Both the position numbers and the translations under genes were made by a program. DNA of 64,000 nt from Eledone cirrhosa (Eukaryota), in NCBI GenBank assembly GCA_964016885.1, contig OZ024748.1, positions 4,092,001 to 4,156,000 of the forward strand, in the 5' to 3' direction. Position 1 is the first letter of the stretch; the number at the start of each line of letters is the position of its first letter. The notes under the pieces were generated by a model. That model saw only the letters and a list, made by a program, of their open reading frames with translations. It was not told the origin of the DNA and did no database searches. This document shows positions 31,747-32,155 of the stretch, piece after piece.

Positions 31747-32155
31747 AGAGTTAAACAAGGTTCAATGAATACATCAAAGAAGAGTTTTACAATAGATTGG
31801 AAGCAATCAACAGATATGTTTTCCAGAAAATGTTTTTAAAAATTAAAAATTAAATTTTATAACTGTTATATTGATGCCATGTATTTCTTAAAATCTATTG
31901 CACGCACCCTCTCTATTGTTTGTATTATGTTATCTCATGTTCTCAATATTAGGGTATAAATATTGAGTTTTGTCATAAGTTAATCACTACCTTGATTGAA
32001 TCTTAACCATCTACTATGTCAGGGTATGTCATGTATAATTTTATTTTATCTGATGAGGACGTACTGTTGAACTTAACTCAGTACCTCTGAAATATGTATA
32101 ATAAAATATAATTGATCACAAGAATATCTATTTTGTTAATATTTTGAATTAATAT
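31743..32155 (+). mobile_element. Hammerhead-bearing element (subfamily b), longest copy
   Basis: Starts ttaagagttaaacaaggttcaatgaat and ends ttttgaattaat(AT)n, like the 8.5 kb and 54.7 kb copies. Confidence 0.85.
32042..32108 (+). ncRNA. Type I minimal hammerhead ribozyme (subfamily b)
   Basis: tattttat-CTGATGA-ggacgtactg...cagtacctct-GAAA-tatgta-TA^ataaaata. Confidence 0.87.

What the first reader, a model, noticed from the sequence alone, without database searches (positions are those of the whole stretch)
32050..32108. Covariation and unusual conserved features define a distinct hammerhead variant
Seen: stem II differs between subfamilies (aaac-acaaat/gtttgt-tttt, gaac-gcaaat/atttgt-tttt, ggac-gtactg/cagtac-ctct, aagc-acacca/tggtgt-cctt, gagc-gtac/gtac-cttt) yet always forms 3 pairs, then a C:C or C:U mismatch, then more helix. 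The closing pair is G-U or A-U rather than the usual G-C, the cleavage triplet is AUA, and the stem III segment is a palindrome or near-palindrome (TGCGCA, TATATA, TATGTA). Inference: selection on RNA structure; the fixed C:Y mismatch may be a tertiary or protein contact that compensates for the weak AU-rich stems.
Basis: partly seen in the sequence, partly recalled or inferred. Interest (0 to 1): 0.75.

Follow-up and report, generated by a model that had tools for sequence, protein, structure and literature searches.

The report
Penelope hammerhead with fixed C·Y mismatch
This is one of tens of thousands of copies of a hammerhead RNA motif at the ends of a known group of animal jumping genes; it is predicted to cut itself only in pairs, and it keeps one unpaired spot in a stem whose other pairs keep changing, likely a docking point for the element's own protein.

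Summary
The motif is a type I hammerhead at the end repeat (pLTR) of Hydra-clade Penelope-like retrotransposons. The window holds 11 copies, and one pattern has 86,997 exact genome matches. Covariation is strong: 14 of 18 pairs change on both sides. The inner helix III letters covary as a palindrome, which fits only a dimer.

Most features called unusual are in print for Penelope hammerheads: palindromic helix III, non-G-C closing pairs, and A at the cut site. AUA occurs in viroids and in a Drosophila element. The closing pair is also not fixed: G-C and U·U occur in sister families.

What remains is the C·C/C·U mismatch at helix II pair 4. It is unpaired in 29 of 29 representatives and is the least-changing position pair. 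It is kept in families with GC-rich stems and with GUC or AUU triplets, so it does not compensate for weak AU stems. I also found AAUAAA at or just behind the cut site. Cleavage is untested. Earlier scan notes describe other hammerheads of this clade in this genome; my look-ups showed none on this mismatch.

The parts
32042..32108 (+). Focal type I hammerhead (family B), helix I 5' strand to helix I 3' strand
   Evidence: 75 bits with a model built from these sequences
32050..32056 (+). Catalytic core CUGAUGA (C3-A9)
32057..32088 (+). Helix II: G.U, G-C, A-U, then the C32060.C32085 mismatch, 6 bp and a 12-nt loop
   Evidence: folds so as MFE, -7.6 kcal/mol, z -1.8; covariation
32089..32100 (+). 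GAAA core, near-palindromic helix III 8-mer AUAUGUAU (32092-32099), triplet AUA; predicted cut between 32100 and 32101
32100..32105 (+). AAUAAA hexamer spanning the predicted scissile bond (candidate poly(A) signal, untested)
31835..32155 (+). 5'-truncated 3' end (pLTR) of a Hydra-clade PLE, family B, ending at the short end in (TA)n
   Evidence: 93% to L120 over 301 nt and 82% to L102 over 335 nt; both carry a GIY-YIG-type endonuclease region upstream of their hammerhead
31745..31827 (-). Inverted tail fragment of the same element, after the left (TA)n tract; left edge approximate
   Evidence: 86% to the L120/L022 tail over 31736-31827, which includes some TA
3021..3095 (-). Family A copy, left arm of an inverted pair (2985-3327)
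3217..3291 (+). Family A copy, right arm
8585..8655 (-). Family B copy
16985..17059 (+). Family A-type copy with a G.G at helix II pair 5 (decay)
32611..32685 (-). Family A-type copy (GAAC-GCAAAT)
34417..34483 (-). Family D copy with a broken core (CUGAUAA), inverted partner of 34574-34639
34574..34639 (+). Family D copy
53842..53910 (-). Family C copy, left arm of an inverted pair (C.U at pair 4)
54007..54075 (+). Family C copy, right arm
54813..54883 (+). Family B copy

Best explanation
The motif is a type I hammerhead fold in the end repeat of Hydra-clade Penelope-like retrotransposons; it is predicted to cut after AUA only when two copies pair through their palindromic helix III, and its C.Y mismatch in helix II is likely kept by selection as a docking or folding point for the element's own RT-endonuclease protein. 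Shown: the fold and its covariation; the link to DKT/CxCX5C ORFs; insertion in (TA)n with a one-sided tail; and one RT lineage for the mismatch families that could be placed. Inferred: a tandem transcript (hammerhead-ORF-hammerhead, 3.3-4.0 kb apart) lets two motifs form an 8-bp intermolecular helix III and release unit-length RNA. Lone truncated copies, such as the focal one, would stay mostly silent, which would let so many sit in the genome. Weakest step: what the mismatch does. I put protein docking at about 0.35, an RNA tertiary contact at 0.2, a stability damper at 0.15, a frozen accident at 0.2 and a DNA-level signal at 0.1.
For: Element: L034 has hammerheads at 5822- and 1882- around a 775-aa ORF, with 489-nt direct repeats; L032 has an 821-aa ORF; L037, L041 and L174 show the same layout. 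DKT and CNCRIKNKC (CxCX5C) motifs are present, and the ORF resembles published Hydra-1_Obim by eye. Family B (focal type) lies behind endonuclease regions in L120 and L102, 80% identical to each other and about 50% to family A. Public contigs show two ends, each followed by TA, and far more depth on the pLTR than on the ORF. Dimer: helix III inner pairs covary (A-U 19, G-C 10; U-A 12, U.G 8, C-G 7, A-U 1, unpaired 1), although they cannot pair in a monomer; the predicted dimer gain is 11-20 kcal/mol. Mismatch: pair 4 is unpaired in 29 of 29 (C.C 21, C.U 7, and U.C 1 in a decayed copy), while pairs 2, 3, 5, 6 and 7 are paired in 27-29 of 29. It shows 2 tree changes over both sides against 8.7 expected (Poisson about 0.008, my arithmetic). 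No amplified family lacks the C among the listed hits: 2,406 of 51,219 non-C and 195 C-G copies, scattered over families, and 1,423 non-C hits (control 225). It is also kept in family I (GUC, C.U, 864 copies) and family J (AUU, mostly C.C, 33 decayed copies). Families A, C, D and I form one RT clade, support 94/94. A Poseidon PLE hammerhead cut only when the element's protein was added (PMC11167929).
Against: No cleavage, RNA or binding data exist for this family. The protein-assisted result comes from another PLE clade, where ribozyme mutants did not affect insertion in vitro and no RNA reads ended at the cut site. The mismatch families share an ancestor, so the feature arose once. The flank tree has weak deep nodes, pair 7 is nearly as conserved (3 changes), and position 4 was picked after the fact. 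In family K a U.C mismatch at pair 4 is present in one subfamily and paired in a sister, so such mismatches can come and go. Published Hydra hammerheads show none (0 of 25, my reading), so it is not needed clade-wide. The dimer hammerhead fold is 0-22 kcal/mol above the unconstrained dimer MFE depending on the copy (3.6 for the focal one), and the monomer fold is above its MFE in all 29. Families B and F lack RT rows in the tree, and no ORF was found for G, H or J.
Confidence: 0.75

Rival explanations
1. The C.Y mismatch is an RNA tertiary contact with helix I or its internal loop, replacing the loop 1-loop 2 contact of canonical hammerheads.
For: It sits about where loop 2 starts in canonical hammerheads (4-bp helix II; PMC4209133). 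The real loop 2 varies freely in length and sequence. Several families have an internal loop after 8 bp of helix I.
Against: I saw no invariant partner base in or beside helix I across families A-J; helix I is 4-8 bp long and changes sequence. GC-rich families keep the mismatch.
Confidence: 0.2
2. The mismatch is a frozen accident: it arose once, is tolerated, and was inherited by all daughter families.
For: Single RT clade. Family K gains and loses a similar mismatch. Single published PLE examples have C.A or U.U at the fourth pair (S. purpuratus 1, C. sinensis 2; my reading).
Against: Neighbouring columns changed 4.3 times each on average while both mismatch bases hardly changed, across proteins only about 40-59% identical.
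Confidence: 0.2
3. The mismatch only weakens helix II, damping cleavage in host transcripts or during transcription; base identity does not matter.
For: The proximal 3 bp are predicted open in families A and G. With about one copy per 35 kb, low monomer activity would protect host RNAs.
Against: Any mismatch would do, yet the 5' base stays C and its partner a pyrimidine in 28 of 29 representatives.
Confidence: 0.15
4. The C is conserved as part of a DNA-level pLTR signal (promoter or endonuclease site), not an RNA feature.
For: The 5' strand keeps C followed by a purine in the families examined. PLE promoters lie in pLTRs (review passage).
Against: The 3' partner lies at variable distance (loop length differs between families) but at a fixed helix register, and is as conserved.
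Confidence: 0.1

Closest known systems
Hammerheads of Hydra-clade PLEs (Craig et al. 2021, PMC8557442; section on Hydra in the preprint, File S1 Hydra sheet, File S2 and alignment rows seen)
   Same: Type I motif near the element's 3' end, host ORF with DKT and CxCX5C, (TA)n insertion, self-complementary helix III, relaxed closing pair (18 of 25 not G-C), H17 = A in 11 of 25 (my counts).
   Different: All 25 listed have GUH triplets, short fully paired helix II and no mismatch at pair 4. The listed Hydra-1_oBim motif is another family. Units here are 3.3-4.0 kb against under about 3 kb.
Metazoan PLE minimal/palindromic hammerheads (Cervera and de la Pena 2014, PMC4209133; main text parts 1-2 of 4, supplement parts 1-2 of 3 seen)
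   Same: pLTR location, long helix II, palindromic helix III, predicted dimers, thousands of dispersed copies in covarying families, inverted pairs 100-700 bp apart. The D. willistoni row reads U-AGCU-AU-A, the same helix III layout and AUA (my reading of PDF text with the GAAA column detached).
   Different: No extra base between A9 and 10.1 and no conserved G10.1-C11.1. A fixed C.Y at pair 4 is not described; single rows show C.A or U.U there.
Poseidon_Ac hammerhead of Anolis (Frangieh et al. 2024, PMC11167929; main text read)
   Same: pLTR hammerhead, two element ends separated by a tail.
   Different: Other PLE clade; there the ORF starts inside helix II, here about 270 nt downstream of the core (family A). 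Protein-assisted cleavage was shown there and is untested here.
AUA-cleaving natural hammerheads: ELVd(+), sCYDV-RPV(+), cscRNA(-) (Carbonell et al. 2006, PMC1636495; passages and Table 1 seen)
   Same: AUA triplet, the slowest of four tested after transcription; sCYDV-RPV also has a long interrupted helix II.
   Different: Plant RNA replicons with stable 5-6 bp helix III, not dimer-type retrotransposon motifs.
Small PLE-associated dimer hammerheads (Lunse et al. 2017)
   Same: Cited in a review passage for dimer cleavage of short-helix-III PLE hammerheads.
   Different: Paper not held, nothing seen; it may already include these variants.

Membership tests
Type I hammerhead ribozyme | Core C3 U4 G5 A6 N7 G8 A9, G12 A13 A14, A15.1-U16.1, H17 | tested here: met
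   Invariant in 29 of 29 representatives; 1 of 11 window copies has G8A
Type I hammerhead ribozyme | Three helices around the core, helix I open-ended, supported by covariation | tested here: met
Type I hammerhead ribozyme | Self-cleavage after H17 | not testable with these tools
   No assay and no RNA reads were available
Type I hammerhead ribozyme | Match to an Rfam hammerhead model | tested here: not met
   0 hits at gathering score in the window; none at E<=10 around the focal copy. A library limit rather than a defining feature
Canonical metazoan hammerhead (Schistosoma type) | 4-bp helix II with conserved loop 1-loop 2 bases | tested here: not met
   Helix II is about 8-16 bp with a variable loop
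PLE minimal hammerhead consensus (Cervera 2014) | Palindromic helix III/loop 3 for dimer pairing | tested here: met
   28 of 29 fully self-complementary with G.U allowed; one has a central mismatch
PLE minimal hammerhead consensus (Cervera 2014) | Extra base between A9 and 10.1, and conserved G10.1-C11.1 | tested here: not met
   Helix II pairs directly after A9; G-C in 4 of 29
Hydra-clade Penelope-like element | Single ORF, RT then C-terminal GIY-YIG endonuclease | tested here: met
   821-aa and 775-aa ORFs with YRDD and IYE..YFG, alike to Hydra-1_Obim by eye. Pfam and PDB sequence searches gave no RT/EN hit
Hydra-clade Penelope-like element | DKT in place of DKG; CxCX5C linker | tested here: met
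   HSDKT in A and C; CNC-X5-C in A, B, C and F
Hydra-clade Penelope-like element | Insertion into (TA)n, pLTRs, inverted truncated partner, one-sided tail | tested here: met
Hydra-clade Penelope-like element | No CCHH motif in the endonuclease | not tested
   No alignment to other PLE clades was made
Hydra-clade Penelope-like element | Placement with published Hydra RTs in a tree | not tested
   The published sequences were only read, not used in calls
Non-LTR retrozyme | Short non-coding tandem repeats, one hammerhead per unit | tested here: not met
   Copies are dispersed or inverted ends of ORF-bearing elements

The most novel reading that the evidence does not exclude
This Hydra lineage runs a protein-gated ribozyme switch. 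The element's telomerase-like RT reads the C.Y mismatch in helix II and licenses dimer cleavage, and the cut splits or removes the AAUAAA signal beside it. The ribozyme would then choose between a polyadenylated mRNA and a cleaved, circularisable template, while tens of thousands of orphan copies stay silent in host transcripts.
Probability: 0.15. Interest if true: 0.75.

Novelty: new variant of a known kind. Interest (0 to 1): 0.35.

Why it matters
The job of hammerheads in Penelope-like elements is an open question (stated in PMC8557442; protein assistance shown in PMC11167929). This lineage offers young intact elements, about ten diverged families as natural variants, and two single-site handles: the C.Y mismatch and the AAUAAA at the cut. 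That makes protein gating and a cleavage-versus-polyadenylation choice directly testable. If neither site matters, it is an ordinary but very abundant PLE hammerhead.

Tried and rejected
Rfam: no hammerhead hit in three scans (in one search only 150 of 502 rows were shown, nearly all microRNA models on simple repeats). Alternative register with an extra base after A9, as in the Cervera consensus: rejected by inspection, because pairing holds only in the direct register (slid controls). Sequencing runs: no RNA holder listed; the four runs laid were contigs of unknown kind and cannot show RNA ends. Pfam and PDB found no RT or endonuclease match. ORF-hammerhead links first assumed from proximity and then dropped because the proteins belong to other families: L101 (not B), L155 (C-type, not G), L177 (not D). 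The endonuclease tree was unresolved at depth. Idea that the mismatch is tied to AUA: rejected by families I (GUC) and J (AUU). Idea that AAUAAA explains H17 = A everywhere: fits only A, B, E and part of C, where it overlaps the cut; elsewhere it lies 5-13 nt downstream. Literature searches listed no paper on a conserved helix II C.Y mismatch or on cephalopod hammerheads of this family; only listings and the named passages were seen, and Lunse et al. 2017 was not held. Scan look-ups by sequence and by words found nothing on this mismatch.

Full report
Observation. The focal motif and all five quoted stem II variants are in the window. A model built from 29 representatives lists 11 copies in the window at 62-80 bits and nothing else above 15 bits; three of the 29 are window copies and match by construction. 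Three pairs of copies are inverted and point outward (3021-3291, 34417-34639, 53842-54075). The topology is type I: helix I is open, and helix III has two pairs and a 4-nt loop. Rfam does not detect it.

Abundance. The window's pattern has 51,219 exact matches in the 3.0-Gb genome, with 0 for the reversed control. A wider pattern requiring C and Y at pair 4 and an RYRY loop has 86,997 matches (control 3). It leaves out most of family G (loop GAUC or GUUC).

Host element. Two full copies settle the identity. L034 has hammerhead, 775-aa ORF and hammerhead, with 489-nt direct repeats; L032 has an 821-aa ORF. [quoted passage not shown] The host is likely an octopus; this is inferred, not tested. 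The focal family B lies behind endonuclease regions in L120 and L102. The focal insertion is (TA)n, an inverted tail fragment, a 320-nt truncated 3' end and (TA)n again. Contigs of public runs end at two places behind the hammerhead, each followed by TA, and cover the pLTR some hundred times deeper than the ORF. Most copies are therefore truncated ends.

Covariation. I chose 29 natural copies by hand to represent the stem II variants seen in the fetched loci (families A-H; alignment A1). One (B4) came from the non-C search and has a decayed pair 4, and families I-K were not included. Of 18 pairs, 14 change on both sides: 6 of 7 in helix I, 6 of 6 in helix II and both inner helix III pairs. No shuffle of 500 reached these values and slid partners gave at most 8. 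The count of further pair types was not above shuffles (164/500), and shuffles ignore relatedness. RNAalifold recovered helix II with its gap at pair 4 unprompted, but did not predict helices I and III. The inner helix III pairs cannot form within one molecule, so their covariation points to an 8-bp duplex between two copies, worth 11-20 kcal/mol in constrained folds. This is the published dimer model.

Which features are unusual. The closing pair is loose here (A-U 13, G.U 8, G-C 4, U.U 4 of 29), in other hammerhead families of this genome (C.A, U.U, A.G) and in published Hydra motifs (18 of 25 not G-C, my count). U10.1.U11.1 is described in PMC3088659. AUA is known from viroid and satellite RNAs and, by my reading, from a D. 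willistoni PLE; all 25 published Hydra motifs have GUH. The palindrome is standard.

The mismatch. Pair 4 is unpaired in 29 of 29 representatives. On a tree from flanks without helix II it shows 2 changes over both sides, one of them the decayed B4 copy, against a mean of 4.3 per column elsewhere in helix II; pair 7 shows 3. Among genome copies, 2,406 of 51,219 lack the C and 195 have C-G. The 100 listed rows of each are spread over all families, as decay would give. A search that forbade the C in the remaining AUA families gave 1,423 hits (control 225); the 100 listed were mutated F, G or H copies or noise. The mismatch persists in F, G and H, which have different helix I and II sequences (that pattern required C and Y but not the pairing). 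It also persists in family I (GUC) and family J (AUU), found with patterns that did not require it. RTs of A, C, D and I form one clade, 94/94, among 16 rows, midpoint-rooted; B and F had no usable RT rows. Against: the origin is single, family K has an unstable U.C at the same place, and published Hydra motifs lack it. Compensation for weak AU stems fails because the GC-rich families keep it. I saw no conserved partner base in helix I, so I favour recognition by the element's protein, by analogy with the protein-assisted Anolis hammerhead. This step is inference.

A second feature. AATAAA starts 0-13 nt from H17 in 210 of 222 distinct AUA-group copies, against 4 in the next 14-nt window and a shuffle mean of 10.2. 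The copies fall into about eight related families, so this is far fewer independent cases. In A, B, E and part of C it spans the predicted cut and lies in helix I. Where helix I has an A-to-G change, a second hexamer stands 5 nt on. Families I and J show ATTAAA there. Other hammerhead families show AATAAA in 9 of 56 copies, a few of them mis-sorted AUA copies. No RNA evidence was available.

Verdict. This is a real, well-supported structural variant of a known kind: the dimer-type hammerhead of Hydra-clade Penelope-like elements. The conserved C.Y mismatch and the adjacent poly(A)-like hexamer were not in the papers and supplements I could read. Lunse et al. 2017 and supplement file 1 of PMC4209133 were not available and may bear on novelty. 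Papers seen only as passages: PMC6765202, PMC3088659, PMC7229834, PMC1636495, PMC13282606 and 10.64898/2026.07.22.740005. Earlier scan notes on other DNA of this genome reach the same clade and dimer reading; they are leads, not support.

Noticed in passing
window 19793-20458 (-): Homeobox exon (Pfam Homeodomain, E 8.7e-24); it looks like labial/Hox1 (name recalled, not tested). The hammerhead copies lie around it.
   Followed up: partly
L190:4566-9725 (G000:C1:14040000-14049999): Tandem array with a 469-bp period, 11 hammerheads listed (helix III CTAG, triplet GUC); retrozyme-like and related to a dispersed family.
   Followed up: no
tails of families A-F and H, about 50-67 nt behind the cut (e.g. 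L010, L022, L168): Conserved ACTCC...GAGTGC stem in otherwise unrelated tails, just past the short end; candidate RT start signal. Earlier scan notes describe the same stem.
   Followed up: partly
window 32100-32105 and homologous sites: AATAAA at or within 13 nt of the predicted cut in 210 of 222 AUA-group copies.
   Followed up: partly
window about 2658-2760, 16755-16854, 17255-17347, 20639-20770, 29496-29603, 32456-32516, 54272-54356: A second GC-rich repeat family, often as inverted pairs inside (TA)n.
   Followed up: no
L034, L036, L037, L049, L069, L106, L108, L111 and others: A dozen or more further hammerhead families with C-started helix III and GUH triplets, some with very long helix II and C.A, U.U or A.G closing pairs.
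   Followed up: partly
window 55306-55906: Exact 46-bp tandem array.
   Followed up: no
L034:2348-2907: 111-bp tandem repeats in the 3' UTR of a full-length family A element.
   Followed up: no
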